In this document: piece after piece, positions 41,324 through 54,611 of the stretch
Numbering within the stretch: the stretch's first letter is position 1
Layout: each line of letters begins with the position of its first letter
Notes under the pieces: model-generated
Databases searched by the model: none
Seen by the model: only the letters and a program-made list of their open reading frames with translations
Told to the model about the DNA's origin: nothing
DNA from: Clostridia bacterium
Lineage (GTDB): Bacteria > Bacillota > Clostridia > Oscillospirales > CAG-272
DNA: 64,000 bases
Direction of reading: 5' to 3'
Assembly (NCBI GenBank): GCA_017456985.1
Contig: JAFTIH010000031.1
Span: forward strand, 64,421-128,420
Made by a program: the position numbers and the translations under genes

Positions 41324-41379
41324 AGTAACAAATGGTTACTTATGCGATATAAACAAAGAGTTTTCTTGATAAAACTCTT
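41324..41379. other. Two inverted repeats upstream of the operon promoter (agtaac-N5-gttact at 41324-41340; aagagtttt-N6-aaaactctt at 41356-41379)
   Basis: Read directly. The second has a 9-bp perfect stem without a T-run, so it could be an operator. Confidence 0.4.
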
Positions 41380-41465
41380 GCAAATTGTGAAAAGTATTTT
41401 CCTTTTCTCGCTCCAGTCGCCCGCTTTTGGTGAGGCTCTGTCGTGATTTCCAAGATTTTTCGCAC

Positions 41466-41494
41466 TTGACAATTATAAATATATATGGTATGAT
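41466..41494 (+). promoter_or_regulatory. Strong sigma-A promoter (TTGACA-17-TGgTATGAT) for the 13-kb transport/processing operon
   Basis: Reads ttgaca attataaatatatatgg tatgat, about 85 nt upstream of ATG 41580. Confidence 0.65.
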
Positions 41495-41579
41495 ATTGGG
41501 GTAAAAATGGTGTGACGGTATTGTGTCCGTTAGGAAAAGTCCGCCAACTTACAAACATACTCTGGGAGGAAAGGTATTC

Positions 41580-44500
41580 ATGAAGACATGCTTTACAAAA
41601 GCAACTGCTGTCTTTCTCGCTGTCCTGATGCTTCTTGGCGCGATCGGTATCCCCGTTTCCGCGGCATCCGGCGAGACCTCGTACGAGGAAATATTGGCAT
41701 CCTTGACCGCTGAGTCGTATGCCAATTATTTGCAAGGTGCGAAAAACGACGGCGCAACCAAGGGAAATGGTGATATTTCTCTTGATATTTTCGATTACAC
41801 GACGGAGGATATGACCGCCGGCGCCGCAGTTGAAAGAAGGGAAGAACAGGTCGTAGATCTGAAGGACCCCAAGAACCCCGTGGAGAAAACCGAGGAGCTT
41901 CTCGTGCTTCCCGACATCGGCACGGTATCTTGGACTTTTAATATTTCTGCGGCACAGGCGGGACTTTACGGCATCCGTGTGGAATACGTATCGCTTTCGA
42001 ACTCCACTTCTTCGATTGAGAGAAAGCTGTATATCGACGGCTCCGTTCCGTTCGACGAGGCAAGAGCCTTCTCGCTCTCCAAGGCATGGCAGTATAAGTA
42101 CGCCGTGAGAGATGAGGAAGGGAACTACACCTTTGAAACGGATGCGGGCGACAACGATATCCGTGCGGACATCGAAACGGTTCCCGTGCTCCGTACATAC
42201 GAATGCTCCGATATCGACGGCTTCTACAATGAGCCCTTCCAGTTCTACTTCAAGGAAGGGGAGCGCACGCTTTCTTTCGTGGCAAGCAAGGAGAGTGTGG
42301 CGATCAAGTCCATCACGCTGTTCCCTGTAGAAACGAGCAAAACGCTGGCAGAGCGTCTTGACGAGTGGAAGAACGTTCCGAACGCATCGGCAGACAGCAC
42401 GGTGATCTTCCGTGCGGAAACGCCCGACTTCGTATCGGATAAGGCAGTTTATCCCGCAAACGACCGTTCCTCTGCGATCACCTCGCCGATCGAGGCGTTC
42501 TCGCAGAAGATCAACGTCATCGGTAGCTCGGGTTATAATACGGCAGGACAGTGGGCTTCCTACACCTTTACGGTGAGTGAGGATGGCATTTACAACATCG
42601 TCGCCCGCTTTAAGCAGTCCGCCCTTGAGGGTATGTTTGCCAGCCGTGTTGTGAAGCTCGCAAGCTCCGACGGCTACTACGGTCAGCCTGACGGTACCCC
42701 TACCGCTCCTTATGAGGAGTGCTATTACGCGCGCTTCGACTATTCTGACGACTGGCGCACGGAAGCGATCAGCGGTGCAAACTTTACCGTAGATGCAGAC
42801 GGCAAAAAGACCTTTACCGGCGACACCACGCCCCTTTCCTTCTACTTCAAGAAGGGCGTGACCTATACGCTTCAAATGGAAGTTGGTCTGGGTAGTATGG
42901 CAGAGCTCTTGAACGAGATCGAAACCACGCTGACGATCACCAACGACTGCTATCTTGAAATTTTGAAGCTGACGGGCGCAGACCCCGACGAGTACCGTGA
43001 CTACGGCTTCCGTCGTGTGATGCCTGTTACCATTGAGCAGCTCGGTAAGCAGGGTAAGGCTCTTGAAGAGCAGGCACTTTCCTTGCGTGAGATCTGCGGC
43101 ACCTCGGGTGCAAATATCGCAACCCTCGAAAACATCTCCCGTCTTCTTACCCGTATGTACGAGGATGAGGACGAGATCGCTCCCAACCTTTCCAACCTCA
43201 AATCTTATATCGGTACCCTCGGTACCTGGCTCAACAGCGTAAAGGCGCAGTCCATCGTCGTTGACTACTATCAGATCGCATCGCCCGATGCCAAGCTGCC
43301 CAAGGCAAACGCCAACTTCTTCCAGGCATTCTGGTACGAGCTGCGTTCCTTCTTTGCAAGCTTCTTCGTGCAGTACGACTCGATGGGCGTTTCGGATATG
43401 TCCGACTCCGTTGCTTCGATCAACGTATGGCTTGCATACGGTCGTGACCAGTCGCAGATCTGGAAGAATCTGATCACCAACAAGTTCTCGAACAACCAGA
43501 AGATCGCAGTTGACCTTAAGCTGGTTGCCGGCGGTACGCTTCTTCCTTCCGTTCTGGCAGGGCAGGGACCCGATGCCTACATCGGTCTTGCGGCAAGCGA
43601 CGTTATCAACTACGCGATCCGTAACGCGATCCTCAATATCGAGGAAATGCCCGGCTTTGCGGAAACGGTGGGCTACAACCACACCGAAAGCGTTCTCGTG
43701 ACGGATGAGAACGGCAGACCTTATTATGCAACGCAATATTATATGATGGATGATAACGGCAACAAAACGCCCGTTGCCGCATCGAGCATCAATTTCAATG
43801 ACGCTACGATGGTTCCGATCACCCTCTACGGCAAGACCTACGGTCTGCCTGAGCAGGCAAACCTTCCGATGATGTTCTACCGTAAGGACATCCTCGCAGA
43901 GCTTCAGATCGACGTTCCCCAGACTTGGGACGACATTCTGGCTGCGATCCCCACGCTGCAGGCAAACAACATGCAGATCGGTCTTGGCTATGAGTTTGCA
44001 ACGAATATGTTCCTTTACCAGTTCGGCGGTAACCTTTGGAAGTACACGGACGATCCTCCCGAAAACCTCACCGAGGAAATGAAGGCGGGATACCGCGATT
44101 ACGCAGGTGCGGCGATCGGTCTTGATACGGACGTTGCCCTCAACTCCTTCCAGTTCTGCTGCCGTCTTTACACCGACTACTCCTTCCCGACGGCGTACGA
44201 CGGAGCAAACCGTTTCAGAACGGGTGAAATTCCGCTGATGATCGCGGACTATTGCGCAACGTACAACCAGCTGGTCGTCTTTGCAACGGAAATCCGCGGA
44301 CTCTGGCAGTTCAACAAGATCCCCGGAACGGTTCGCGATGACGGTACCGTCAACAGTGATTCTATCGTCACCGTAACGGCAACCGTTATGCTTCACGGCT
44401 GTGACGACATCGAGTCCACCTGGAAGTATATGATGTGGCAGGCAGGCGGCGAGGTACAGGCTGACTACGGTAACGAAATGGTTGCTCTGGTCGGTCCTGC

Positions 44501-44810
44501 CGCAAAATATGCTACCGCAAACATTCAGGGTATCGGTATGATCTCTTGGAGCGCTGCCGAGAGAAACAGCTTGCTTGAGCAGTTCGATCACCTTGCAGCG
44601 ATCCCCAACTATCCCGGAAGCTATATCATTGCTCGCTATACAAAATTTGCTTTCCTTGATGCGTACAACAATGGCGCGGATCCTGTTACGGCAATTCAGG
44701 ATTACATCACCATTATCAACAAGGAGATCACCCGTAAGAGAGCAGAGTTTGATCAGAAGACCCTGAAGGAGGGTCAGACTCCCGTCGATGCTATGACCGA
44801 AGCGGAGTAA
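41580..44810 (+). CDS. Giant extracellular solute-binding protein (1076 aa): signal peptide, about 520 aa with two CBM-like modules, then a family-1 sugar SBP domain; start at ATG 41580 behind GGGAGG
   Basis: The signal peptide is MKTCFTKATAVFLAVLMLLGAIGIPVSA/AS. CBM-like signatures are GLYGIRVEYVSLSNSTSSIERKLYIDGS and GIYNIVARFKQSALEGMFASRVVKL. The SBP core is INVWLAYGRDQSQIWKNLI..LAGQGPDAYIG..WDDILAAIPTLQANNM. Confidence 0.7.
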   Translation: MKTCFTKATAVFLAVLMLLGAIGIPVSAASGETSYEEILASLTAESYANYLQGAKNDGATKGNGDISLDIFDYTTEDMTAGAAVERREEQVVDLKDPKNPVEKTEELLVLPDIGTVSWTFNISAAQAGLYGIRVEYVSLSNSTSSIERKLYIDGSVPFDEARAFSLSKAWQYKYAVRDEEGNYTFETDAGDNDIRADIETVPVLRTYECSDIDGFYNEPFQFYFKEGERTLSFVASKESVAIKSITLFPVETSKTLAERLDEWKNVPNASADSTVIFRAETPDFVSDKAVYPANDRSSAITSPIEAFSQKINVIGSSGYNTAGQWASYTFTVSEDGIYNIVARFKQSALEGMFASRVVKLASSDGYYGQPDGTPTAPYEECYYARFDYSDDWRTEAISGANFTVDADGKKTFTGDTTPLSFYFKKGVTYTLQMEVGLGSMAELLNEIETTLTITNDCYLEILKLTGADPDEYRDYGFRRVMPVTIEQLGKQGKALEEQALSLREICGTSGANIATLENISRLLTRMYEDEDEIAPNLSNLKSYIGTLGTWLNSVKAQSIVVDYYQIASPDAKLPKANANFFQAFWYELRSFFASFFVQYDSMGVSDMSDSVASINVWLAYGRDQSQIWKNLITNKFSNNQKIAVDLKLVAGGTLLPSVLAGQGPDAYIGLAASDVINYAIRNAILNIEEMPGFAETVGYNHTESVLVTDENGRPYYATQYYMMDDNGNKTPVAASSINFNDATMVPITLYGKTYGLPEQANLPMMFYRKDILAELQIDVPQTWDDILAAIPTLQANNMQIGLGYEFATNMFLYQFGGNLWKYTDDPPENLTEEMKAGYRDYAGAAIGLDTDVALNSFQFCCRLYTDYSFPTAYDGANRFRTGEIPLMIADYCATYNQLVVFATEIRGLWQFNKIPGTVRDDGTVNSDSIVTVTATVMLHGCDDIESTWKYMMWQAGGEVQADYGNEMVALVGPAAKYATANIQGIGMISWSAAERNSLLEQFDHLAAIPNYPGSYIIARYTKFAFLDAYNNGADPVTAIQDYITIINKEITRKRAEFDQKTLKEGQTPVDAMTEAE

Positions 44811-44854
44811 ATTGACGGCTTTGCTGTCCTACATTATAATAAGGAGAGAAATTC

Positions 44855-45799
44855 ATGTCGAATAATGAAAAAAAGCGTCTTGTATCGCGCAAGGATATGA
44901 CGATGGCGCAATGGACATGGAAAGAGATGAAGCGGAACAAGGTTGCGTACATTATGTGCGCTCCCTTCTTCCTCCTGTTCTTCGTCTTCACCGTGCTTCC
45001 CGTTGCACTGTCCATCTTCTTCAGCTTTACGGAATTTAACATGCTGGAGCCTCCGAAATGGGTGGGCTTCGACAACTACATCCACCTCTTTCTCGAAGAC
45101 GATATCTTCGTGATCGCCTGCAAAAACACCTTGATCTTCGCGGCGATCACGGGTCCCGTTTCCTACTTGATGTCCTTCCTCGTGGCTTGGTTCATCAATG
45201 AGCTTTCCCCGAAGATCCGTGCTGTCGTTACGCTGATCTTCTATGCGCCCTCCATCTCGGGCTCGGTCTATATGGTATGGACCATTCTGTTCTCGAGTGA
45301 CTCCTACGGTTACGTTAACGGTACACTGCTTGAACTGAACATCATCGACAGCCCGATCATGTTCTTCCAGAACGCCGATTACGTTATGCCACTTTGTATC
45401 GTCGTCGCCCTCTGGACCTCGCTCGGTACCGCCTTCCTGTCCTTTATCGCAGGTTTGCAGACGGTAGATCGCAGTCAGTACGAGGCGGGCGCCGTTGACG
45501 GTATCAAGAACCGTTGGCAGGAGCTTTGGTACATTACGCTTCCGACGATGCGTCCTCAGCTGATGTTCGGTGCGGTGCTTGCTATCACGGGTGCATTCGG
45601 TTTCGGTGCCGTCGTTACGGCGCTGTGCGGTATGCCCTCCGTTGACTATGCGGCACACACCATCATGCACCATCTGGACGACTATGGCGGAATCCGTTTT
45701 GAGGTCGGTTATGCTTCGGCAATCGCCGTATTCCTCTTCTTGATCATGCTTGGTTGTAACCTCGTAATCAAGAAATTACTTTCGAAGGTGGGGCAGTGA
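44855..45799 (+). CDS. Sugar ABC transporter permease (MalF/LplB-like), pair 1
   Basis: It has six TM segments and the EAA loop YEAGAVDGIKNRWQELWYITLPTMRP. Confidence 0.8.
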   Translation: MSNNEKKRLVSRKDMTMAQWTWKEMKRNKVAYIMCAPFFLLFFVFTVLPVALSIFFSFTEFNMLEPPKWVGFDNYIHLFLEDDIFVIACKNTLIFAAITGPVSYLMSFLVAWFINELSPKIRAVVTLIFYAPSISGSVYMVWTILFSSDSYGYVNGTLLELNIIDSPIMFFQNADYVMPLCIVVALWTSLGTAFLSFIAGLQTVDRSQYEAGAVDGIKNRWQELWYITLPTMRPQLMFGAVLAITGAFGFGAVVTALCGMPSVDYAAHTIMHHLDDYGGIRFEVGYASAIAVFLFLIMLGCNLVIKKLLSKVGQ

Positions 45800-45800
45800 T

Positions 45801-46676
45801 ATGAGCAAGAAATTAAGAACACGCCATCATAAAGTTGTCCTCAACCGTTCCGCAGGCGGTGACGCGGGTATCACCTTCCTCTTGGTGATCCTCGGTGCCT
45901 TTATGTTCCTGCCGATGCTGTATGTTATCATGCAGTCCTTGAAGCCTCTTGACGAGCTCTGGATGTTCCCCCCGCGCTTCTATGTTATGAGCCCGACGCT
46001 CGGTAACTTCGGAGACCTGTTCTCCCTGATGAACGACTCGTGGGTTCCGTTCTCCCGTTACATCTTTAACACCGTGTTTATCACCGCGTGCGGTACCTTC
46101 GGTAACCTGATCGTTGCATCCCTTGCCGCGTACGCACTCGCAAAGATGAAATTCCCGGGCAGAAACTTCTTGTTCCAGATCGTCGTTCTTTCGCTGATGT
46201 TCCACCAGACGGTCAACCAGCTCTCGAACTTCATTATCATGTCCACGCTCGGTATGGTCGATACTTACCTCGCAATCATCGTTCCCGCACTTGCCGGTAC
46301 GATGGGTCTGTACTTAATGAAGCAGTTTATGGAGAGCTCCGTTGCGGATTCCGTTCTGGAGTCTGCCCGTCTTGACGGTGCGTCCGAGTTCCGCATCTTC
46401 TTAACGATCGCAATGCCGATGGTTAAGCCCGCGTGGTTAACGCTTTTGATCGAGTCCTTCAAGACCCTTTGGAATACGGGTGCATCCATCTACATCCACT
46501 CCGAGGAACTCAAGACCTTTAACTACGCAATCAACCAGGTCGTTACGGCAGGTGTTCAGCGTGCAGGTGCTTCGGCGGCTGCTACCGTTGTCATGATGAT
46601 CGTACCGATCACCGTATTCGTTCTCAGCCAGAGCCAGATCATCGAAACGATGGGTAGCTCGGGTATGAAAGACTAA
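45801..46676 (+). CDS. Carbohydrate ABC transporter permease (MalG-like), pair 1
   Basis: It has the EAA loop LESARLDGASEFRIFLTIAMPMVKP and starts 1 nt after the upstream stop. Confidence 0.8.
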   Translation: MSKKLRTRHHKVVLNRSAGGDAGITFLLVILGAFMFLPMLYVIMQSLKPLDELWMFPPRFYVMSPTLGNFGDLFSLMNDSWVPFSRYIFNTVFITACGTFGNLIVASLAAYALAKMKFPGRNFLFQIVVLSLMFHQTVNQLSNFIIMSTLGMVDTYLAIIVPALAGTMGLYLMKQFMESSVADSVLESARLDGASEFRIFLTIAMPMVKPAWLTLLIESFKTLWNTGASIYIHSEELKTFNYAINQVVTAGVQRAGASAAATVVMMIVPITVFVLSQSQIIETMGSSGMKD

Positions 46677-46686
46677 GGAGGGAATT

Positions 46687-49014
46687 ATGAAAAACAAGAA
46701 AATAGTATCTCTCCTGCTCGTGCTGCTCGTGGCGGTGCTGGTGCTTGGCGCTATGCCCGTTTCCGCGGCAGAGCCCTTCCAGACCTATACCTATTCGTCC
46801 GACGGCTTTGCTCTGTATTCTCCTGCGGCGTATTCTACGCCCAGAACCTTTGACTACCGTGACATTTTTGCAGGTTATACCGGTGCGGTCATCGATTTCG
46901 ACAAGCCCACCGATATTACGACGGATGATGCAGGGAACATCTACCTTGCAGACTCCGGAAACAACCGCATCGTCGTGATGTCCGGTGAGGACTATAAGGT
47001 CAAGACGATCATTCAGAACTTCGACAACAACGGCTACGCGGACTCCTTCAACGAGTGCCGCGGTGTGTTCGTCGATGATGAATACGTTTACGTTTGTGAT
47101 ACCAACAACGAGCGAATCGTTATGTTCGACCGTTACGGTAATTTCACTTCCTCTGCGCGCGTCATCGGTAAGCCGAGCGGCACGCTCTTCGGTGCAACGA
47201 CGCAATACAACCCCGTTGCGGTTGCCGTTGACCAGTATGAGAGAATCTTCGTCATTTCCTACACCACCTACGAAGGTGTCATCGTGATGACGAGCGACGG
47301 TATCTTTACGGGTTACATCGGCGCTCAGAAGGGTGACTACAGCGCGATGGAGATTCTCCTTCGCCGCTTCCAGTCCGCAGAACAGCGTAAAAATTCCAAG
47401 CAGAACACCTCTACGGAGTTCAACAACATCTCGATCGACAGCGACGGCTTCGTTTACGTCACCACCAACACGATCGACGAAAACAAGCAGCAGGCTGCGA
47501 TTGAAAGCAAAGAGGCTGACTACGCTCCCGTTAAGAAGTTAAACTCTGCAGGTGCGGAGATCATGAAGCGCAACGGCTTCTTCGCCCCCGGCGGTGAGGT
47601 TGAGGTGCAGTCGGGTCTCGGCGTCCAAAAGGACAGTGATGAGATCACGGGCGCTTCGAGCATCGTTGACGTTGCCATCGGCGACGAGGGCACTTGGACG
47701 ATTGCCGACGCAAAGCGTAGCAAGGTATTTACCTACGACCAGAACGGTATTCTTCTGTTCGCTTTTGGCGACAAGGGTATTCAGCGCGGTAACATTCAAA
47801 CGATCTCCGCGATCACCTATCAGGGAAATAACCTGATCATCCTGGATAAGGATGCCAAGAGCTTTACCGTATTTACCAGAACGGTTTACGGCGATCTGCT
47901 TATTGACGCCCTTCGTTGCGAAAACGATCGCAGATATGAGGAATCCGTTGATGCTTGGCTGAGCGTCTTGCAGTATAACAACAACTTTGACTCCGCCTAC
48001 ATCGGTGTCGGTAGAGCGTATTATCGCCAGGGTGACGCGACCTTCGTTTCCCCCGACGGTCAGACCTACTACAAGCAAAGCTCCGTAGCCGTTTACGGCG
48101 GTGCCGACGGTAAGGAGATCGTAGCCTATACGGTTGACGGCACGCCCGAAGGGGAAGTCATTGACGTCAACAACGATTACGATAAAACGGGTTACGACCT
48201 TGCCATGGATTACCTCTCTGCGGCATACGACGACCAGAACTGGTCTAACGCTTACAAGGAAGTCCGCAAGGAATGGATCTCTAAGTTTATCCTTTTGATC
48301 TTGATCGTTGCCGTTGTACTCGTCGTGCTTCTTGCTAAGTTCTTGAAGTTCGCAGGCAACTACAACGCAAAGGTAGCACTTCTTGGCGTACAGCGCAAGA
48401 CCTTCCGCCAGGAGCTGATGTACGTGTTCCACCTGGTGTTCCATCCGTTTGACGGCTTCTGGGACCTCAAGCACGAAAAGCGCGGCTCCGTTCGAGCTTC
48501 TCTCGTGATCTTGGCGGTTGTCATCCTCAGCTTCTACTACCAGTCCATCGGTACGGGCTACGTAATGAACCCCGAGGGAACCTACTCTACGATCGTGGCA
48601 CAGTTCCTTTCCGTGATGCTCCCCTTCATTCTGTGGGTCATCTCCAACTGGTGTCTTACGACACTCTTTGAGGGTGAAGGCTCCTTCAAGGATATCTTCA
48701 TTGCAACCTCGTACGCACTGGCACCTCTGCCTTTGTTCCTGATCGTTTCTACCATTATGTCCAACTTCGTGACGCTTGAAGAATCTGCAATCGCTTCGAT
48801 GCTCGTCGTCATCGCCTTCGTCTGGGCAGGTCTTCTGATCTTCTTCGGTACGATGGTCACGCACGACTATTCCTTCACGAAGAACCTGTTTATGTGCCTT
48901 GCAACGATCGTTGGTATGGCAGTGATTATGTTCGTCGGCTTCTTGTTCTCGAGCCTCATCGGAAAAATGGTTTCCTTTGTGTCCTCGATCATCTCGGAAA
49001 TTTCGTATCGGTAA
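46687..49014 (+). CDS. Signal peptide - NHL-repeat beta-propeller - TPR-like segment - TM - Yip1-domain membrane protein (775 aa)
   Basis: NHL-like repeats are DDAGNIYLADSGNNRIVVMS and DDEYVYVCDTNNERIVMFD. The TPR-like segment is AWLSVLQYNNNFDSAYIGVGRAYYRQGD. The C-terminal 5-TM block FHPFDGFWDLKHEKRGS.. is typical of bacterial Yip1-domain proteins. Confidence 0.6.
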   Translation: MKNKKIVSLLLVLLVAVLVLGAMPVSAAEPFQTYTYSSDGFALYSPAAYSTPRTFDYRDIFAGYTGAVIDFDKPTDITTDDAGNIYLADSGNNRIVVMSGEDYKVKTIIQNFDNNGYADSFNECRGVFVDDEYVYVCDTNNERIVMFDRYGNFTSSARVIGKPSGTLFGATTQYNPVAVAVDQYERIFVISYTTYEGVIVMTSDGIFTGYIGAQKGDYSAMEILLRRFQSAEQRKNSKQNTSTEFNNISIDSDGFVYVTTNTIDENKQQAAIESKEADYAPVKKLNSAGAEIMKRNGFFAPGGEVEVQSGLGVQKDSDEITGASSIVDVAIGDEGTWTIADAKRSKVFTYDQNGILLFAFGDKGIQRGNIQTISAITYQGNNLIILDKDAKSFTVFTRTVYGDLLIDALRCENDRRYEESVDAWLSVLQYNNNFDSAYIGVGRAYYRQGDATFVSPDGQTYYKQSSVAVYGGADGKEIVAYTVDGTPEGEVIDVNNDYDKTGYDLAMDYLSAAYDDQNWSNAYKEVRKEWISKFILLILIVAVVLVVLLAKFLKFAGNYNAKVALLGVQRKTFRQELMYVFHLVFHPFDGFWDLKHEKRGSVRASLVILAVVILSFYYQSIGTGYVMNPEGTYSTIVAQFLSVMLPFILWVISNWCLTTLFEGEGSFKDIFIATSYALAPLPLFLIVSTIMSNFVTLEESAIASMLVVIAFVWAGLLIFFGTMVTHDYSFTKNLFMCLATIVGMAVIMFVGFLFSSLIGKMVSFVSSIISEISYR

Positions 49015-49031
49015 GAAAGGGAGGAATGAAA

Positions 49032-52000
49032 ATGAAAAAAATAATTTCTTTTGTACTCGCCCTGATTACCTTGATCAGCTGTTTTTCCGTGATGTCGGTT
49101 CCCGCATCTGCGGCAACGGTTGACACCTCCAAGGACTATATGCAGGTCCTGAAGGATGCATACAACTACAAGTACAAAACCGGCTATGAATACCTGACGG
49201 ATCAGGTCGCTAAGGGCAATATGCAGCTTTACGCCCGTGCAAACGGCTTCGAGCTGTATTGTAACCCCTTCACGGGTGAGGTCGCTTACGTCAATATTGC
49301 GACGCAAAAGGTCCTTACCACCAACCCCCACGATTTCTCTACCATTCACGAGATGCTTGGCGGTTCGGTCAACCCTAACCCCGCAAAGAACGATACCTTT
49401 ACCGATCTTCTTTCGCAGATCGAAGTTACGTTCACCGACAACGAGGGTCAGCTTCGCCGCTTTACCAGCATCGTGGAGGCTGCTTCCCGCAACCAGATCG
49501 TTGTTAAGTATATGAAGAACGGTCTGCGTGTCGAGTACACGATGGGTCGTTTGAATACGACTTACCTGCTTCCCGGTGTTATCCTGGAAGAGGATTTCAA
49601 GGCAAACATCATGACCCCCATCGAGGAATATCTCGCTTGGGTCGAGAGCAAGGTCGGTATGGATTCCAAGGAATACGAGGAAGTTTATGCCACCATTATG
49701 AAGCTCGATTCCTGGTACCGTCCTTCTACGTATGAAACGGAAACGGTCACCTCTCTGCGTGATGACCTCGCAAAGAAGTACCCCGTTTACAAGCCTGATC
49801 CTAACGACCCCGAGAACACGGGTAAGACCATCTACTATTTGGATGAGAACTCGGAGCAGGGCATTACGGACAGAGAGCGCGTTACGCTTGAGAATCTGCT
49901 GAAAGCTTACTGCCCCGACCTTGACCACGATATGCTGGATGAGATGCACGCAAAGACAGGCTATACGCCTGACGTAAACGAAACTCCCGTTTTCCGCGCA
50001 GCAATCGAGTACGTCCTTCAGGACGATGGCCTTTCCGTTCGTCTTCCTGCCAGCAGCATTCGTTTTGATGAAACAAAATATACGCTTGAGCACGTCAAGA
50101 TCCTGCAATATTTCGGTGCAGGCAACTTAAACAACGACGGTTACGTGTTCTATCCCGACGGTAGCGGTGCGATCATCGAATTCGGTGATTTCTATTCCAA
50201 GACCAACGCGGACAACAGAGAGTCCTTTACACTCTCCAGCTCCGTTTACGGTGAGGATCACGCTTATTACAAGATCGACGTCAATGCGAAGCACTCCGAG
50301 GTCATCCGCGTTCCCGTATTTGGTATCGTGGAGCAGCAGGAGAACAACGCTTACAGCGATGGTTACTACGACAGCGGCTTCTTCGCAGTTCTTGAGGACG
50401 GCGATGCTTTGGCGGACATTGCAACCTTCTTCGGCGGCGGTCAGTTCAACTTTGCTGCAGCTTACGCTATGTTCTATCCGCGTCCTTCGGATGCTTATAA
50501 CCTGGCAGACGCGATCTCGGTAGCGGACAACAAGGAAATGACGATCGTTTCCGATAAGAAGTACACGGGCTTCTACAAGCTCAAGTACACGATGCTCTTT
50601 GATGACAGTGAGCTTATGAAGAGCACCGCTGAAAAGTCGAATCGCTTCTTTGCAAGCTATTCGGGTATGGCTGCGGTCTATCGCGATTACCTGAAGAGAG
50701 CGGGCGTGATCTCGCAGCTCACCGAGGAAGAGGTTACCGAAAACAAGATTCCTCTTTACGTAGAAACGCTTGGCTCGGTAGAAACGGTGAAGAAGATCCT
50801 CTCCATTCCCGTTACTGTGGACGTTCCCTTGACGAGCTTTGATGACATCGAAACGATGTACAATCAGCTTGCCAAGAAGAATATCACGAACCTTAACTTT
50901 AAGCTGACGGGTTACGCAAACGGCGGTCTTGATTCCAAGTACCCTGAAAAGGTAAAATGGGTTCGTGCCGTCGGCGGTAAGAGCGGCTTTGCCGATCTGC
51001 AAGAGTTTGCGGCGGAGAAGGGCGTTGGAATCTATCCTGAGTTTGAATTTTCGTACGCTTCTGCTGATAGCGGTTTAAGACTGAAAAAGTACGCGGCACG
51101 TGCCGTTGATGACCGTTATGCTACTAAGCAGGTTTACGACCCTGTATATCAGAAGTTCGATTCCTTCTTCGACGTTTGTGTTTCCCCCGATTCGATCTAC
51201 GAGCTTGTTGGTAAGTTTATGAAGAAGTATTCCAAGTACGAGCCGACGGGTATTTCGGTCTCCACGCTTGGCGGTGACTTGAACTCTAACTTCAACAAGG
51301 ATAATCCTCTCAACCGTCAGGATGCTGAGGATTATATCAAGGATTCGCTTAAGATGCTGAACGAGGAGTATTCCAGCGTTCTGGCTGAGGGTGGTAACAT
51401 CTATTCCGTTGAATATCTTGACCATATTCTCAACCTGCCCCTTGATGCAAGTAACTACAAGTACGAGAGTAAATCTGTTCCGTTCCTCGGTATGGTTCTT
51501 CACAGCTATATCAACTACACCGGTAACGTTATGAACGAAGCCGGAGATAGCACGTATCAGATGCTGAAGGCAATCGAAAACGGCTCGTTCCTGTACTATA
51601 TGCTGATCTATCAGAACAGCACGTTGCTTAAGGAGGACGAGGAGCTCAGCAAATACTATTCCGTTCGTTTTGATATCTGGTTCAACACCATCGTTGAGCA
51701 GTATAACACGCTGAACGGTGCGGTTGGTGATTTGCAGCTGTATGAGATCGTTGATCACGAGTTCCTGATCGGCGAGCGCGTTCTTAAGCCCTCTGAGCTT
51801 GATGCGATCGTAAACTCTCTGGATGCAAAGATCGCGAGCGATCTTGAGGTACAGTATAAGGCGCTTGTATCCAAGCAGCGCGCAGAGCTTCGTTTGAAGC
51901 AGATCGCCCAGAACTTGATCTTAGCAGGGAACACTACCCTCGATGATCTGAAGCAGAAAGTGCTTTACGTTCTTGGCGGTACGCTGAACGCGTCGCAGGT

Positions 52001-52481
52001 GGCAATTCTCGAAGTTCTTCTTGCAGAATATGCACAAAACGGCTCCTTCGCTGAGGATTACTATAATAAGACGATCAGCGTGGTGCTTGACAGAGCAGTT
52101 CTCGAAGCAAAGATCACTGCGATCACGGGTGTTGCCGTAACGGATGCCCAAAAGAAGATCCTTGATGATTTCGCGGCACGCTACAGCGTTGCAGCAGATT
52201 ATACGCTTACCATCGACACCTTCGGTGCAAGCGTTTCGCTTAAGAACAACACCACGACCTCTTTTGCACAGGATAATGACTATAAGGAAACGGACTACAC
52301 GGAAAGCTCCGGACGTATCGTTCTCGTAACCTATGCTAAGGGGGATTCTACGGTTCATTTCGTTTTGAACTACAATAGCTTTGACGTTGCTGTCCGTTTG
52401 AAGGGCGTGAACGGTGAGGAAGCCTTTACGGTTCCCGCAAACGGTTTCTGCCGCATCAACGGCACGGTCCTTGCAGACTAA
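49032..52481 (+). CDS. Large exported protein of unknown function (1150 aa), possibly lipid-anchored, possibly a glycan-processing enzyme; start at ATG 49032
   Basis: The N-terminus MKKIISFVLALITLISC fits a lipobox (L-I-S-C), and an alternative SPase I site follows (PASA/A). There are no TM segments after that. A central segment (YVETLGS..LTGYANGGLDSKYPEKVKW..GIYPEFEF) is reminiscent of a glycosidase-like barrel. No catalytic motif was identified. Confidence 0.55.
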   Translation: MKKIISFVLALITLISCFSVMSVPASAATVDTSKDYMQVLKDAYNYKYKTGYEYLTDQVAKGNMQLYARANGFELYCNPFTGEVAYVNIATQKVLTTNPHDFSTIHEMLGGSVNPNPAKNDTFTDLLSQIEVTFTDNEGQLRRFTSIVEAASRNQIVVKYMKNGLRVEYTMGRLNTTYLLPGVILEEDFKANIMTPIEEYLAWVESKVGMDSKEYEEVYATIMKLDSWYRPSTYETETVTSLRDDLAKKYPVYKPDPNDPENTGKTIYYLDENSEQGITDRERVTLENLLKAYCPDLDHDMLDEMHAKTGYTPDVNETPVFRAAIEYVLQDDGLSVRLPASSIRFDETKYTLEHVKILQYFGAGNLNNDGYVFYPDGSGAIIEFGDFYSKTNADNRESFTLSSSVYGEDHAYYKIDVNAKHSEVIRVPVFGIVEQQENNAYSDGYYDSGFFAVLEDGDALADIATFFGGGQFNFAAAYAMFYPRPSDAYNLADAISVADNKEMTIVSDKKYTGFYKLKYTMLFDDSELMKSTAEKSNRFFASYSGMAAVYRDYLKRAGVISQLTEEEVTENKIPLYVETLGSVETVKKILSIPVTVDVPLTSFDDIETMYNQLAKKNITNLNFKLTGYANGGLDSKYPEKVKWVRAVGGKSGFADLQEFAAEKGVGIYPEFEFSYASADSGLRLKKYAARAVDDRYATKQVYDPVYQKFDSFFDVCVSPDSIYELVGKFMKKYSKYEPTGISVSTLGGDLNSNFNKDNPLNRQDAEDYIKDSLKMLNEEYSSVLAEGGNIYSVEYLDHILNLPLDASNYKYESKSVPFLGMVLHSYINYTGNVMNEAGDSTYQMLKAIENGSFLYYMLIYQNSTLLKEDEELSKYYSVRFDIWFNTIVEQYNTLNGAVGDLQLYEIVDHEFLIGERVLKPSELDAIVNSLDAKIASDLEVQYKALVSKQRAELRLKQIAQNLILAGNTTLDDLKQKVLYVLGGTLNASQVAILEVLLAEYAQNGSFAEDYYNKTISVVLDRAVLEAKITAITGVAVTDAQKKILDDFAARYSVAADYTLTIDTFGASVSLKNNTTTSFAQDNDYKETDYTESSGRIVLVTYAKGDSTVHFVLNYNSFDVAVRLKGVNGEEAFTVPANGFCRINGTVLAD

Positions 52482-52498
52482 GAAGGGAGGGATAGAAT

Positions 52499-53479
52499 AT
52501 GAATCAGGCACAAAATAACGTTTCTGCCCCTGTGGTAGAGGCTCCTGTCAAAAAGAAAAAGCCCGTTTCGCTGACGAAGAGAAAAGCGCGCGCGGGTTGG
52601 CTGTTCGTTCTCCCCTTCGTCGTCGGCTTGCTTGTTCTTTACATCCCGATCATTTTAGACTCGATCTGCTTCTCGTTCTTTGAGATCATTCCTACGACGA
52701 GCGGCTACTCCTTGCAGTTCCAGGGAATCAAGTTCTATCATCAGGCGCTCTTCGTCAACGCAACCTTCACCACCACCCTTGTGGCGGGTATCAAGCAGCT
52801 GCTCGTTGACACGCCTATGATCCTGATCTTCTCGCTCTTCATTGCAGTCGTTCTGAACCAGAAAATGATGGGACGCGCTGCATTCCGTGCGATCTTCTTC
52901 ATCCCGGTCGTTCTTTCGACCGGTTTGATGGAGACCATCAACGCATCGGATACGCTGTCCGATTATATGGGCGGCGGCTCCGGTGGCGGTATCTCGGACG
53001 GTTCGGGAACAAACGCTTCCTCGGAGATCGTTTCTGCCGTGGATATTGAGCGCTTGTTTGAGGGATTGAAGATCGGTACGGGATTAGTCGAGTACGTTTC
53101 CAATGCAGTAAACAGTATTTATGATATTGTAAACCGTTCCGGCGTTCAGATGCTGATCTTCCTTGCAGGCTTGCAGGGAATCTCGCCCTCCATCTACGAG
53201 GCGAGCAGCATTGAGGGCGCTACGGCGTGGGAAACGTTCTGGAAGATCACCTTCCCAATGATCAGCCCGATGATCTTGGTAAACGCTATCTACACCATTA
53301 TCGACTCGTTTACCAGCCAAAGCAACGTCGTGATGTCGTTTATTGCGGGTATTTACCAAAACTCCCAGGCAACGGCAACGGCAATGTCTTGGATCTACTT
53401 CATCGTCATTATGGCAATCATCGGCTTGTTCGTTCTGATTGCTTCGTCGTTCGTCTTTTATCAAAGACGCGATTCGTAA
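52499..53479 (+). CDS. Sugar ABC transporter permease (MalF-like), pair 2
   Basis: It has the EAA loop YEASSIEGATAWETFWKITFPMISP and six TM segments. Confidence 0.8.
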   Translation: MNQAQNNVSAPVVEAPVKKKKPVSLTKRKARAGWLFVLPFVVGLLVLYIPIILDSICFSFFEIIPTTSGYSLQFQGIKFYHQALFVNATFTTTLVAGIKQLLVDTPMILIFSLFIAVVLNQKMMGRAAFRAIFFIPVVLSTGLMETINASDTLSDYMGGGSGGGISDGSGTNASSEIVSAVDIERLFEGLKIGTGLVEYVSNAVNSIYDIVNRSGVQMLIFLAGLQGISPSIYEASSIEGATAWETFWKITFPMISPMILVNAIYTIIDSFTSQSNVVMSFIAGIYQNSQATATAMSWIYFIVIMAIIGLFVLIASSFVFYQRRDS

Positions 53480-53494
53480 GAAAGGAGGTACCGT

Positions 53495-54565
53495 ATGGAT
53501 AACACGCAAAAAGCGCCTAAGGTTATGCGCGAAAGCAAAAACAGAATTCGCGTGGAGTTTGAGGACAGAACGCCCTTTTGGCAGCGTATGAAGTCCAAGA
53601 TCTTCTCGATGTACTTCTTGACCAACGTTGTTTGGTACCTCTTCCGCTTCATTCTGATGATTGGCGTTTCGTACGTCATTCTGTTCCCGTTCTTTTCCAA
53701 GATCGCGGGCTCGTTTATGTCCCCCTCCGATTTCGTTGACCCTACGGTCTGCGTTATTCCGAAAAGCCCGACGCTTGATATTTACAAAGCGATCATCCTT
53801 GAAAACGGCTATCTTTCCGCTCTTTTCAATACGATCGTCCTGTCCTTGTCCACCGCACTGATCCAGACGTTTGTCGCAGCTTTGGTTGGCTACGGACTTT
53901 GTAAGTTCAAGTTCAAGGGCAACTCCGTGGTTATGATCTTCGTTATCATCACGATGATCATTCCTCACGAGACCATCCGTCTTTCTATGATGCAGCACTT
54001 CCGTTACTTTGATATCGGCGGTGTGCAGGGACTTAATATCCCCGGTCTTATTCAGGGTATCGTAGGAATTTTTGGCGGACACATCGAGATCAATTTGATG
54101 GAATCCTTTGCACCGCTGATCCTTTTGTCGGTCTTTGGTCTTGGCTTCAAGAACGGTCTTTACATCTTTATGATGCGCCAGTTCTTTACGGGTGTCCCGG
54201 ATGAGCTTGAAGAATCGGCATACGTGGACGGCTCCAACACCTTCCGCACCTTCTTCCAGATCATTCTCCCGCTCTCCATCCCGATGATGGTTACCATCTT
54301 CCTCTTCGCCTTCTGCTGGCAGTGGACGGATGACTTCTACACCGGTATCTTCTTTACAGGTGACGGTCCGATCCGCTTGATGCCGGATATCCTAGAGATT
54401 CCGAAGAGCTTGGAGACCGCCGCAAGCTACGCGGCACAAAAGCTGTACTATACAGCGATCAACAATACCTGCGGTATTATGATCATACTGCCTCTGGTCA
54501 TTCTTTACCTGTTCTGCCAGAAGTTCCTGGTACAGGGTATCGAAAGATCCGGTCTTGTTGGCTAA
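53495..54565 (+). CDS. Carbohydrate ABC transporter permease (MalG-like), pair 2
   Basis: It has the EAA loop EESAYVDGSNTFRTFFQIILPLSIP. Confidence 0.8.
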   Translation: MDNTQKAPKVMRESKNRIRVEFEDRTPFWQRMKSKIFSMYFLTNVVWYLFRFILMIGVSYVILFPFFSKIAGSFMSPSDFVDPTVCVIPKSPTLDIYKAIILENGYLSALFNTIVLSLSTALIQTFVAALVGYGLCKFKFKGNSVVMIFVIITMIIPHETIRLSMMQHFRYFDIGGVQGLNIPGLIQGIVGIFGGHIEINLMESFAPLILLSVFGLGFKNGLYIFMMRQFFTGVPDELEESAYVDGSNTFRTFFQIILPLSIPMMVTIFLFAFCWQWTDDFYTGIFFTGDGPIRLMPDILEIPKSLETAASYAAQKLYYTAINNTCGIMIILPLVILYLFCQKFLVQGIERSGLVG

Positions 54566-54576
54566 AAAACAAACTA

Positions 54577-54611
54577 TGCCCTTGCATCGCTTTGCTTTGC
54601 AAGGGCATTTT
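54577..54611 (+). terminator. Rho-independent terminator ending the 13-kb operon
   Basis: Stem tgcccttgc..(13 nt)..gcaagggca followed by tttt. Confidence 0.6.

What the first reader, a model, noticed from the sequence alone, without database searches (positions are those of the whole stretch)
41466..54611. 13-kb single-promoter operon: one giant SBP, two MalFG-type permease pairs, no ATPase, plus two large uncharacterised exported proteins
Seen in the sequence: a strong promoter (TTGACA-17-TGgTATGAT) is followed by seven genes with gaps of 44 nt or less, and by one terminator at 54577-54611. The order is:
- SBP (1076 aa)
- permease
- permease
- NHL/TPR/Yip1 protein (775 aa)
- 1150-aa exported protein
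- permease
- permease
All four permeases have EAA loops. There is only one recognisable SBP. There is no nucleotide-binding subunit, no regulator and no recognisable glycoside hydrolase motif.
Established knowledge: Firmicute sugar importers often borrow a shared MsmX/MsmK-type ATPase.
Inference: this is a composite capture, processing and import machine for an unidentified polymeric substrate. The second permease pair may be served by one of the two large proteins instead of a classical SBP. The unbroken absence of TTA/CTA/TCA codons over at least 1000 codons of the SBP gene (deduced from the codon-aligned open antisense frame) suggests strong codon optimisation and high expression.
Basis: partly seen in the sequence, partly recalled or inferred. 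Interest (0 to 1): 0.6.

Follow-up and report, generated by a model that had tools for sequence, protein, structure and literature searches.

The report
Twin sugar-importer operon with GH129-like partner
This is a real seven-gene operon for taking up complex sugars; the same gene cassette occurs in fixed order in hundreds of gut and plant-degrading Gram-positive bacteria and is annotated, but never tested biochemically, in the xylan locus of Caldicellulosiruptor bescii, and here it lacks the second binding protein that distant copies usually carry.

Summary
One strong promoter, seven + strand genes with gaps of 1-44 nt, one terminator, four permeases with EAA loops, one giant binding protein, and no ATPase or regulator.

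The block is not unique. The order SBP / permease pair A / NHL-TPR-Yip1 / DUF5696 / permease pair B is kept in 85 of the 120 related loci I read. Nearly all the other loci are cut by contig ends.

Its Caldicellulosiruptor homologue is published as xloEFG-X-GH129-axoFGE (Athe_0174-0181), a xylan-induced operon under XynR (Rodionov 2021). An msmK deletion severely impaired that organism's growth on oligo- and polysaccharides.

- **"No glycoside hydrolase" does not hold at fold level.** The 1151-aa protein is DUF5696, and its model matches GH129, GH101 and GH31 structures. The canonical GH129 catalytic acids do not appear to be kept.
- **ATPase.** The genome holds one orphan MalK/UgpC-type ATPase.
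- **Second binding protein.** A second, ordinary SBP sits beside 13 of 20 distant cassettes. It is absent here, and no spare SBP was found elsewhere in the assembled genome.
- **Codons.** The codon claim is partly supported.

The scan has flagged this cassette in at least 106 other genomes. Earlier follow-ups called it undescribed; the C. bescii papers correct that. The substrate here is unknown.

The parts
41466..41494 (+). Sigma-70-type promoter, TTGACA-17-TGgTATGAT (extended -10)
   Evidence: 11 of 12 positions, TG present; sequence read.
41580..44810 (+). Giant exported solute-binding protein, 1076 aa, XloE-like. It has an N-terminal hydrophobic signal or anchor without a lipobox, two beta-sandwich modules (about 60-250 and 320-436), a four-helix stalk (440-555) and a MalE-like family-1 SBP domain (about 610-1076).
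   Evidence: AF2 model with pLDDT 82.6. Foldseek matches to oligosaccharide SBPs. Profile hit to Lin1841 (5ysb), E 2e-11. Homologues carry PF13416/PF01547. Lipobox-like motif in only 4 of 68 family members.
44812..44840 (+). Promoter-like site TTGACG-17-TATAAT in the gap between the SBP gene and permease A1. Its -10 box ends only 14 nt before the ATG, so function is doubtful.
44855..45799 (+). Permease A1 (MalF/UgpA type, XloF-like), 314 aa
   Evidence: Best match of the XloF-position genes in the Caldicellulosiruptor loci.
45801..46676 (+). Permease A2 (MalG/UgpE type, XloG-like), 291 aa
46687..49014 (+). NHL beta-propeller / TPR ectodomain, then one TM helix (535-553), then a Yip1 5-TM domain (604-752); 775 aa. 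Homologue of Athe_0177 ('X', NHL repeat-containing protein).
   Evidence: Pfam Yip1 at 3e-16, NHL at 3e-9, TPR weak. Hydropathy. In 11 loci it is split into a propeller protein with signal peptide and C-terminal TM helix plus a separate 5-TM Yip1 protein.
49026..52481 (+). DUF5696 protein, 1151 aa, with an N-terminal hydrophobic anchor or signal. GH129/GH101/GH31-like N-domain, (beta/alpha)8 barrel and C-terminal beta-sandwich, plus a lineage-specific helical insert (922-1053). Homologue of Athe_0178/Csac_2415.
   Evidence: PF18952 at 1e-140. AF2 pLDDT 86.8. Foldseek 5opq at 6e-23 and 5wzp at 6e-20. 26% identity to the C. bescii protein, E 6e-50. Identity of that protein established.
52499..53479 (+). 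Permease B1 (MalF/UgpA type, AxoF-like), 326 aa, with a Gly/Ser-rich segment before the EAA loop that is probably an extracytoplasmic loop
53495..54565 (+). Permease B2 (MalG/UgpE type, AxoG-like), 356 aa
54576..54612 (+). Intrinsic terminator: 11-bp stem followed by UUUU
   Evidence: -20.8 kcal/mol, z -4.7; sequence.

Best explanation
**What it is.** The block is one operon. It encodes a member of a widespread, fixed-order Bacillota cassette. The only studied example of that cassette is xloEFG-X-GH129-axoFGE in the xylan degradation locus of Caldicellulosiruptor (Anaerocellum) bescii.

**Shown here**
- It encodes two CUT1-type ABC importer membrane channels, permease pairs A and B. Each permease has an EAA loop for docking an ATPase.
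- It encodes one giant exported binding protein, built from two beta-sandwich modules, a helical stalk and a MalE-like oligosaccharide-binding domain.
- It encodes a membrane protein with an outward-facing NHL propeller/TPR domain fused to a Yip1 5-TM domain.
- It encodes a membrane-anchored or secreted DUF5696 protein with a GH129/GH101-like fold.

**Inferred**
- Both channels are powered by the genome's single orphan MalK/UgpC-type ATPase. This follows the C. bescii case, where the CUT1 systems lack ATPase genes and the msmK deletion severely impaired growth on oligo- and polysaccharides.
- The giant binding protein captures oligosaccharide at the cell surface and delivers it to pair A.
- The propeller-Yip1 protein and the DUF5696 protein work with pair B. 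The four genes travel together as a module. They trim, hold or hand over a second class of fragments from the same glycan.
- The imported oligosaccharides are finished inside the cell by the organism's signal-less GH10, GH43, GH3 and GH13 enzymes.
- In this lineage the ordinary second SBP was lost. Pair B must therefore be fed by the giant SBP or directly by the accessory proteins.

The substrate in this organism is not established. Xylo- or arabinoxylo-oligosaccharide is the leading guess only by analogy.
For: **Operon anatomy:**

**Domains:**

**Conserved gene order**
- All 20 loci taken from 16 relatives show it: 18 with the full set in this order, one cut by a contig end, one rotated.
- Of 80 species-representative loci, 55 are complete and the rest are cut by contig ends.
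- The 20 phylum-level loci span 32-65% GC.
- In total, 85 complete cassettes are in this order.

**Family size**
- DUF5696 was found in 32 of 401 sampled genomes of the phylum.
- It comprises 5602 clusters at 50% identity.

**Two modules:** the order YDcd-Sab occurs in 3 loci, and YDcd occurs alone in others.

**Propeller and Yip1** are fused in 103 loci and split in 11.

**Link to the literature**
- Csac_2415 and the C. bescii protein are DUF5696 members.
- Rodionov 2021 lists Athe_0174-0181 as XloEFG, an NHL protein, 'GH129' and AxoFGE. All are induced on xylan and Avicel within the XynR/AraR regulon. The paper also reports the msmK deletion phenotype.
- XDL transporter genes (Csac_2412, 2417-2419) are upregulated on xylan-rich biomass in C. 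saccharolyticus.
- The 2025 XynR/XylR paper lists XynR operator probes for Athe_0174 in its binding-assay methods.

**Own genome**
- One orphan UgpC/MalK-type ATPase, 480 bits, lies beside a Tex-like gene.
- Only one other CUT1 system exists, and only three family-1/8 SBPs.
- The GH10, GH43, GH3 and GH13 proteins lack signal peptides.
Against: - No experiment on any member shows transport, binding, enzymatic activity or a physical complex. The C. bescii names are predictions from context and transcriptomics.
- The substrate cannot be carried over. The window's DUF5696 is only 26% identical to the C. bescii protein. One relative carries six paralogous cassettes, which implies that specificity has diversified. 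The flanks here are housekeeping genes.
- No LacI- or cre-like operator lies near the promoter.
- DUF5696 does not match the Pfam GH129 model.
- No conserved acid sits at the predicted ends of barrel strands 4 and 6. A low-confidence profile alignment puts the likely GH129 nucleophile motif opposite S-V-S-T. It may therefore not be a hydrolase.
Confidence: 0.6

Rival explanations
1. The block is two independent ABC importers that merely sit side by side: the giant SBP with pair A, and pair B with its helper proteins. They would be regulated and would function separately. This is how the C. bescii literature names them (XloEFG and AxoFGE).
For: - The two halves can change order (YDcd-Sab in 3 loci), and YDcd occurs without Sab within 20 kb in others.
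- Most distant cassettes give pair B its own ordinary SBP (13 of 20).
- A promoter-like site at 44812-44840 matches 11 of 12 positions.
Against: - 85 complete loci keep the two halves contiguous in the same order, with gaps of a few bases.
- In C. bescii all eight genes sit in one operon with one regulatory site and rise together on xylan.
- In this genome no SBP is available for pair B other than the giant one.
- The internal promoter-like site lies after the SBP gene, not between the two halves. Its -10 box ends 14 nt before the ATG, which leaves no room for a leader that includes the ribosome-binding site.
Confidence: 0.15
2. DUF5696 is not an enzyme. It would be a GH-shaped carbohydrate-binding pseudo-enzyme that, together with the NHL-Yip1 protein, acts as the substrate receptor for permease pair B. 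It would replace the classical SBP in lineages such as this one.
For: - Pair B is intact in all complete cassettes of this order, yet only 3 of 100 such loci have a second SBP nearby.
- The own genome has no spare SBP.
- No conserved acid lies at the predicted ends of barrel strands 4 and 6. Positions 755 and 757 vary between D and N, and both are N here.
- A weak profile alignment places S-V-S-T opposite the likely GH129 nucleophile motif.
- Earlier scan note e1-3995556 reached the same view.
Against: - Three acids are kept in 97-98% of 122 sequences: D378, D411 and E851. The motifs PDGSG and YGxD are strictly kept. This pattern is typical of an active site.
- Most distant cassettes have a normal SBP for pair B as well as DUF5696, so DUF5696 is not simply an SBP substitute.
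- The giant SBP could serve both channels.
- The residue mapping rests on a predicted model and on a 10%-probability alignment.
Confidence: 0.25
3. The cassette here is specifically a xylo-/arabinoxylo-oligosaccharide importer, as predicted for its C. bescii homologue.
For: - The homologous operon is xylan-induced and XynR-controlled.
- The own genome encodes one intracellular enzyme each of GH10, GH43 and GH3.
- It has only two CUT1 systems in total.
Against: - Identity to the C. bescii proteins is low (26% for DUF5696).
- Paralogous cassettes in single genomes imply different specificities.
- Genes flanking the cassette in other genomes vary: AraC regulators, GH3 and others.
- The genome also has four GH13 genes.
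- No xylan genes lie next to the operon.
Confidence: 0.25

Closest known systems
xloEFG-X-GH129-axoFGE operon of the xylan degradation locus of Caldicellulosiruptor (Anaerocellum) bescii, Athe_0174-0181 (= Csac_2419-2412). Sources: Rodionov et al. 2021, PMC8579813; the 2025 XynR/XylR study, PMC12285236; Blumer-Schuette et al. 2017, PMC5658599.
   Same: - All seven genes are homologous and in the same order: giant SBP, two permeases, NHL(-Yip1) protein, DUF5696 ('GH129'), two permeases.
- There is no ATPase gene in the operon.
- A separate MsmK-type ATPase is encoded elsewhere in the genome.
   Different: - The C. bescii operon continues with a second, ordinary SBP (AxoE) and with xylanase genes, and it is under XynR/AraR. 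Here there is no second SBP, no adjacent glycoside hydrolase gene and no LacI-type operator.
- Identity is low (26% for DUF5696).
- The DUF5696 protein here is about 400 aa longer, with a helical insert.
- Functions in C. bescii are themselves predictions.
CUT1-family ABC sugar importers of Firmicutes with a shared ATPase (MalEFGK2 type; MsmX of B. subtilis; MsmK of S. pneumoniae and C. bescii)
   Same: - MalF/MalG-type permeases with EAA loops.
- A family-1 SBP domain.
- An orphan MalK/UgpC-type ATPase.
   Different: - Two permease pairs share one operon with a single SBP.
- The SBP is 1076 aa, with extra modules and no lipobox.
- Three extra conserved surface or membrane proteins are present.
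GH129 and GH101 glycoside hydrolases (ZgGH129 3,6-anhydro-D-galactosidase, 5opq; NagBb alpha-N-acetylgalactosaminidase, 5wzp; EngBF/SpGH101)
   Same: The overall three-domain fold of the DUF5696 model matches: Foldseek E 6e-23 and 6e-20, TM-score on the target 0.60-0.64.
   Different: - No match to the Pfam GH129 model.
- No significant match between sequence profiles.
- The canonical catalytic positions do not appear to be conserved.
YknWXYZ of Bacillus subtilis, in which a Yip1-family membrane protein acts as an accessory to an ABC transporter
   Same: A Yip1-type polytopic membrane protein is genetically tied to an ABC transporter.
   Different: YknYZ is a MacB-type exporter and has no propeller ectodomain. 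The role of Yip1 is unknown in both cases.

Membership tests
CUT1 (MalEFGK-type) ABC carbohydrate importer | Two membrane subunits of the BPD_transp_1 family, each with an EAA loop | tested here: met
   All four permeases hit PF00528 (A2 at 24.4 bits, just under the 26.4-bit cut-off) and MalF/G, UgpA/E and GlcT/U models. The EAA-type loops were read.
CUT1 (MalEFGK-type) ABC carbohydrate importer | Family-1 extracytoplasmic solute-binding protein | tested here: met
   C-terminal domain of the 1076-aa protein: profile hit to 5ysb at E 2e-11; Foldseek matches to oligosaccharide SBPs with TM-score on the target 0.7-0.8. There is only one such protein for two permease pairs.
CUT1 (MalEFGK-type) ABC carbohydrate importer | MalK/MsmK-type ATPase dimer | tested here: inconclusive
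   None in the operon. One orphan UgpC/MalK-type ATPase lies at contig C33:37338-38471. Its pairing with these permeases cannot be tested with these tools.
XDL-type twin-importer cassette (xloEFG-X-GH129-axoFGE) | Gene order: giant SBP, permease pair, NHL(/Yip1), DUF5696, permease pair | tested here: met
   The Caldicellulosiruptor loci L120 and L133 show the same order and the same best hits. The locus tags were linked through.
XDL-type twin-importer cassette (xloEFG-X-GH129-axoFGE) | Second, ordinary SBP (AxoE) next to the second permease pair | tested here: not met
   Absent from the window and from 97 of 100 order-level loci; present in 13 of 20 distant loci. No spare SBP was found in the own genome.
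XDL-type twin-importer cassette (xloEFG-X-GH129-axoFGE) | Xylan induction under a XynR (LacI-type) operator | tested here: inconclusive
   No LacI- or cre-like palindrome lies near the promoter.
Glycoside hydrolase family 129 | Match to the family's sequence model (PF11308) | tested here: not met
   No hit even at E up to 10. No PF11308 match anywhere in the own genome.
Glycoside hydrolase family 129 | GH129/GH101-type fold: N-terminal domain, (beta/alpha)8 barrel, C-terminal beta-sandwich | tested here: met
   Foldseek against the PDB: 5opq at 5.8e-23, 5wzp at 5.7e-20, followed by GH101, GH31 and GH36 structures. Model pLDDT is 86.8.
Glycoside hydrolase family 129 | Conserved catalytic Asp nucleophile and Glu acid/base | tested here: inconclusive
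   A 10%-probability hhalign alignment puts the likely GH129 'IDCD' motif opposite 'ISVST', and 'SEGGND' opposite 'xxGGNxY'. Position 788 is acidic in only 47% of 122 sequences. The acids kept in 97-98% of sequences are D378, D411 and E851. No structural superposition was available.
Yip1 family (PF04893) | Five-TM Yip1 domain | tested here: met
   Pfam E 3.1e-16, covering positions 2-171 of the 173-position model. Five hydrophobic segments lie at 604-752.
Gram-positive lipoprotein SBP | Lipobox cysteine after the signal peptide | tested here: not met
   The N-terminus MKTCFTKATAVFLAVLMLLGAIGIPVSAAS has no lipobox. A lipobox-like motif occurs in only 4 of 68 family members.

The most novel reading that the evidence does not exclude
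The NHL-Yip1 / DUF5696 / permease pair B module would be an ABC importer fed without a classical binding protein. A membrane-tethered, GH129-shaped protein, either catalytic or a pseudo-enzyme, would be held by the propeller-Yip1 scaffold and pass glycan fragments straight to the channel.

The S2-less cassettes of this gut Clostridia lineage would then be natural proof that a type I ABC importer can work with an enzyme-like receptor in place of an SBP.
Probability: 0.15. Interest if true: 0.75.

Novelty: new member of a known kind. Interest (0 to 1): 0.5.

Why it matters
- **It is very common.** The cassette occurs in hundreds of species-level genomes of gut, rumen and plant-degrading Bacillota. 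DUF5696 alone comprises 5602 clusters at 50% identity.
- **It matters to this organism.** It is one of only two CUT1 sugar importers in this 1.8-Mb genome, so it probably carries a large share of its carbohydrate diet.
- **Its core parts are untested.** Three of its fixed parts have never been tested: the giant unanchored binding protein, the propeller-Yip1 membrane protein and the GH129-shaped protein.
- **There is now a way to test it.** The link to the genetically tractable C. bescii operon Athe_0174-0181 gives a direct experimental route. It also corrects earlier notes of this scan that called the module undescribed.
- **This lineage poses a specific question.** Because the second binding protein is missing here, one can ask how a second ABC channel is fed.

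Tried and rejected
- **Codon bias.** I first assumed the lack of TTA/CTA/TCA was only genome-wide bias, because all seven genes are poor in them. One search rejected this. The three codons make up 8.5 per 1000 genome-wide. The SBP gene holds the third-longest run in the genome without them, after PFOR and a 1412-aa surface protein. Only 7 of 92 genes of 700 codons or more have none.
- **Sequence-level link between DUF5696 and solved structures or GH129.**
  - The profile against PDB sequences gave only spurious interferon-gamma hits.
  - hhalign against four GH129 proteins matched only the C-terminal beta-sandwich, at 23% probability.
  - A forced alignment of the core reached 10% probability.
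- **Domain clues in the longest DUF5696 relatives.** Pfam on the 1600-1976-aa relatives found nothing besides DUF5696.
- **A conserved partner gene in the flanks.** None is universal. An extra SBP occurs in 16 loci, AraC in 9 and GH3 in 6; the rest is housekeeping synteny.
- **Operator search near the promoter.** No LacI- or cre-like site was found.
- **Literature.** Searches for DUF5696 and PF18952 gave no papers. VanFossen 2009 is not held.
- **N-terminal modules of the SBP.** They could not be searched separately, because fold searches take whole models only.

Full report
**1. Observation**

The region holds seven + strand genes:

| Gene | Coordinates | Length |
|---|---|---|
| SBP | 41580-44810 | 1076 aa |
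| Permease A1 | 44855-45799 | 314 aa |
| Permease A2 | 45801-46676 | 291 aa |
| NHL/TPR/Yip1 | 46687-49014 | 775 aa |
| DUF5696 | 49026-52481 | 1151 aa |
| Permease B1 | 52499-53479 | 326 aa |
| Permease B2 | 53495-54565 | 356 aa |

- Every gene has a Shine-Dalgarno sequence. The gaps are 44, 1, 10, 11, 17 and 15 nt.
- The promoter TTGACA-17-TGgTATGAT lies at 41466-41494.
- The terminator is an 11-bp stem at 54576-54608 followed by UUUU, with -20.8 kcal/mol and z -4.7.
- A second promoter-like site, TTGACG-17-TATAAT, lies at 44812-44840 in the gap after the SBP gene. Its -10 box ends 14 nt before the next ATG, so I doubt that it works.
- No ATPase or regulator gene lies inside the block.

**2. 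What the proteins are**

- **Permeases.** All four are BPD_transp_1 proteins of MalF/UgpA or MalG/UgpE type with EAA loops.
- **Giant SBP.**
  - It has no Pfam hit itself, but its homologues carry SBP_bac_1 and SBP_bac_8.
  - A family profile hits the sophoro-oligosaccharide-binding protein Lin1841 at E 2e-11.
  - The AF2 model (pLDDT 82.6) shows two beta-sandwich modules, a four-helix stalk and a MalE-like domain. That domain superposes on oligosaccharide SBPs.
  - It has a hydrophobic N-terminus but no lipobox. This holds for the family, where only 4 of 68 members have a lipobox-like motif.
- **NHL/TPR/Yip1 protein.** The 775-aa protein consists of a signal peptide, an NHL propeller and TPR region, one TM helix and a Yip1 5-TM domain.
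- **DUF5696 protein.**
  - The 1151-aa protein matches PF18952 at E 1e-140.
  - Its model (pLDDT 86.8) is closest to GH129 structures: 5opq at 6e-23 and 5wzp at 6e-20. GH101, GH31 and GH36 follow.
  - The block therefore does contain a glycosidase-shaped protein.

**3. Conservation**

- The order S-a-b-Y-D-c-d is found in all 20 loci taken from 16 relatives. One relative has six copies.
- It is found in 55 of 80 species-representative loci from uncultured gut and rumen Clostridia. The other 25 are cut by contig ends.
- It is found in phylum-level loci from 32% to 65% GC.
- Over the 120 loci, 85 are complete in this order, 3 are permuted to YDcd-Sab and 1 is rotated.
- Y-D-c-d also occurs without S-a-b nearby. 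The cassette therefore consists of two modules.
- The propeller and Yip1 parts are fused in 103 loci. In 11 loci they are split into a propeller protein with its own C-terminal TM helix and a separate 5-TM Yip1 protein. This argues that they act together.
- DUF5696 comprises 5602 clusters at 50% identity. It is present in 32 of 401 sampled genomes of the phylum.

**4. Literature link**

- A search with a distant cassette member identified named relatives in Caldicellulosiruptor, Paenibacillus, Gracilibacillus and others. Cluster look-up gave Csac_2415, Calkr_0158, Calkro_2392 and the C. bescii protein ACM59330.
- Rodionov et al. 2021 (PMC8579813) describe the xylan degradation locus operon xloEFG-X-GH129-axoFGE-xynF... 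Their data sets list:
  - Athe_0174-0176 as XloEFG;
  - Athe_0177 as 'NHL repeat-containing protein';
  - Athe_0179-0181 as AxoFGE.
- All are induced on xylan and Avicel and assigned to the XynR/AraR regulon.
- The same paper shows that CUT1 systems there lack ATPase genes, and that deleting msmK severely impaired growth on oligo- and polysaccharides.
- The 2025 XynR/XylR paper lists XynR operator probes for the Athe_0174 site in its binding-assay methods.
- C. saccharolyticus transcriptomes tie XDL transporter genes (Csac_2412, 2417-2419) to xylan.
- All functions of the transporters, 'X' and 'GH129' are predictions. I found no biochemistry.
- The window's DUF5696 is 26% identical to Athe_0178 over 601 residues, E 6e-50.

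**5. The ATPase and the missing second SBP**

- The own genome (1.8 Mb, 93.6% complete) has one MalK/UgpC-type ATPase, scoring 480 bits. It lies beside a Tex-like gene and away from any transporter.
- The genome has only one other CUT1 system, on contig C2.
- It has three SBP_bac_1/8 proteins: the giant one, the C2 lipoprotein beside its own permeases, and a PotD-like one beside a PotA-like ATPase.
- An ordinary SBP of 420-660 aa lies directly next to the cassette in 13 of 20 phylum-level loci, but in only 3 of 100 order-level loci.
- The lineage of this window has therefore lost it, while pair B stays intact in every complete cassette.
- Pair B must be fed by the giant SBP or by the accessory proteins.

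**6. Is DUF5696 an enzyme?**

- Over 122 sequences, the acids kept in 97-98% are D378, D411 and E851. They come with the invariant motifs PDGSG, YGxD, N791/Y793 and ExG.
- The acids at 580, 672 and 674 are kept in 84-88% of sequences.
- The predicted ends of barrel strands 4 and 6 carry no conserved acid. Positions 755 and 757 switch between D and N, and both are N here.
- Sequence profiles do not connect the family to GH129 with confidence.
- A 10%-probability alignment puts the likely GH129 nucleophile motif opposite S-V-S-T.
- I conclude that the fold is GH129-like. Membership in GH129 is not shown, and catalysis is open.

**7. Codon claim**

- TTA, CTA and TCA together make up 8.5 per 1000 codons in 990 likely genes. 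They make up 3.7 per 1000 in the other six operon genes and none in the SBP gene.
- The SBP gene has the third-longest run in the genome without them, behind a pyruvate:ferredoxin oxidoreductase gene and a 1412-aa surface protein gene.
- This fits high expression. It also matches C. bescii, where xloE transcripts exceed those of its permeases.
- The antisense ORF at 41340-44591 is a by-product.

**8. Substrate**

- The flanks here are housekeeping genes: mnmA upstream and an RsmF-like methyltransferase downstream.
- The genome encodes one GH10, one GH43, one GH3 and four GH13 proteins, all without signal peptides.
- This fits an oligosaccharide scavenger. It allows xylo-oligosaccharides but does not single them out.

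**9. Earlier scan notes**

- The cassette has been flagged 124 times in at least 106 genomes.
- Those follow-ups agree on the conserved order and on the GH129-like fold.
- They state that no description exists. The C. bescii papers contradict that point.

**10. Verdict**

Noticed in passing
window 41356-41379: A perfect 9-bp inverted repeat, AAGAGTTTT-6-AAAACTCTT, lies about 90 bp upstream of the -35 box of the operon promoter. It could be a binding site for an unlinked regulator.
   Followed up: no
window 44812-44840: A promoter-like site, TTGACG-17-TATAAT (11 of 12), lies in the 44-nt gap between the SBP gene and permease A1. Its -10 box ends 14 nt before the ATG.
   Followed up: partly
window 41340-44591 (- strand): A 1083-aa antisense ORF lies opposite the SBP gene. 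It is a shadow frame (GC1 > GC3) created by the absence of TTA, CTA and TCA codons.
   Followed up: yes
own genome, contig C33:22346-26582: A 1412-aa exported protein gene lies next to the pyruvate:ferredoxin oxidoreductase gene. It has the longest run in the genome without the three rare codons, so it is probably a very highly expressed surface protein.
   Followed up: no
L120:3662-6521 (Caldicellulosiruptor genome G172): The permease A2 (xloG-like) gene is split into pieces of 189 aa and 215 aa, with about 1.6 kb between them. This may be an insertion element that inactivates this copy.
   Followed up: no
genome G026 (loci L015, L027-L030): One 1.8-Mb relative carries six DUF5696 cassettes. 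This suggests diversification onto different substrates.
   Followed up: partly
proteins P0065, P0105, P0107, P0119 (1839-1976 aa): Some DUF5696 proteins carry about 900 extra C-terminal residues with no Pfam match.
   Followed up: partly
L117:10525-17403: Downstream of one cassette lies a run of several tandem SBP-like genes of about 440-455 aa.
   Followed up: no
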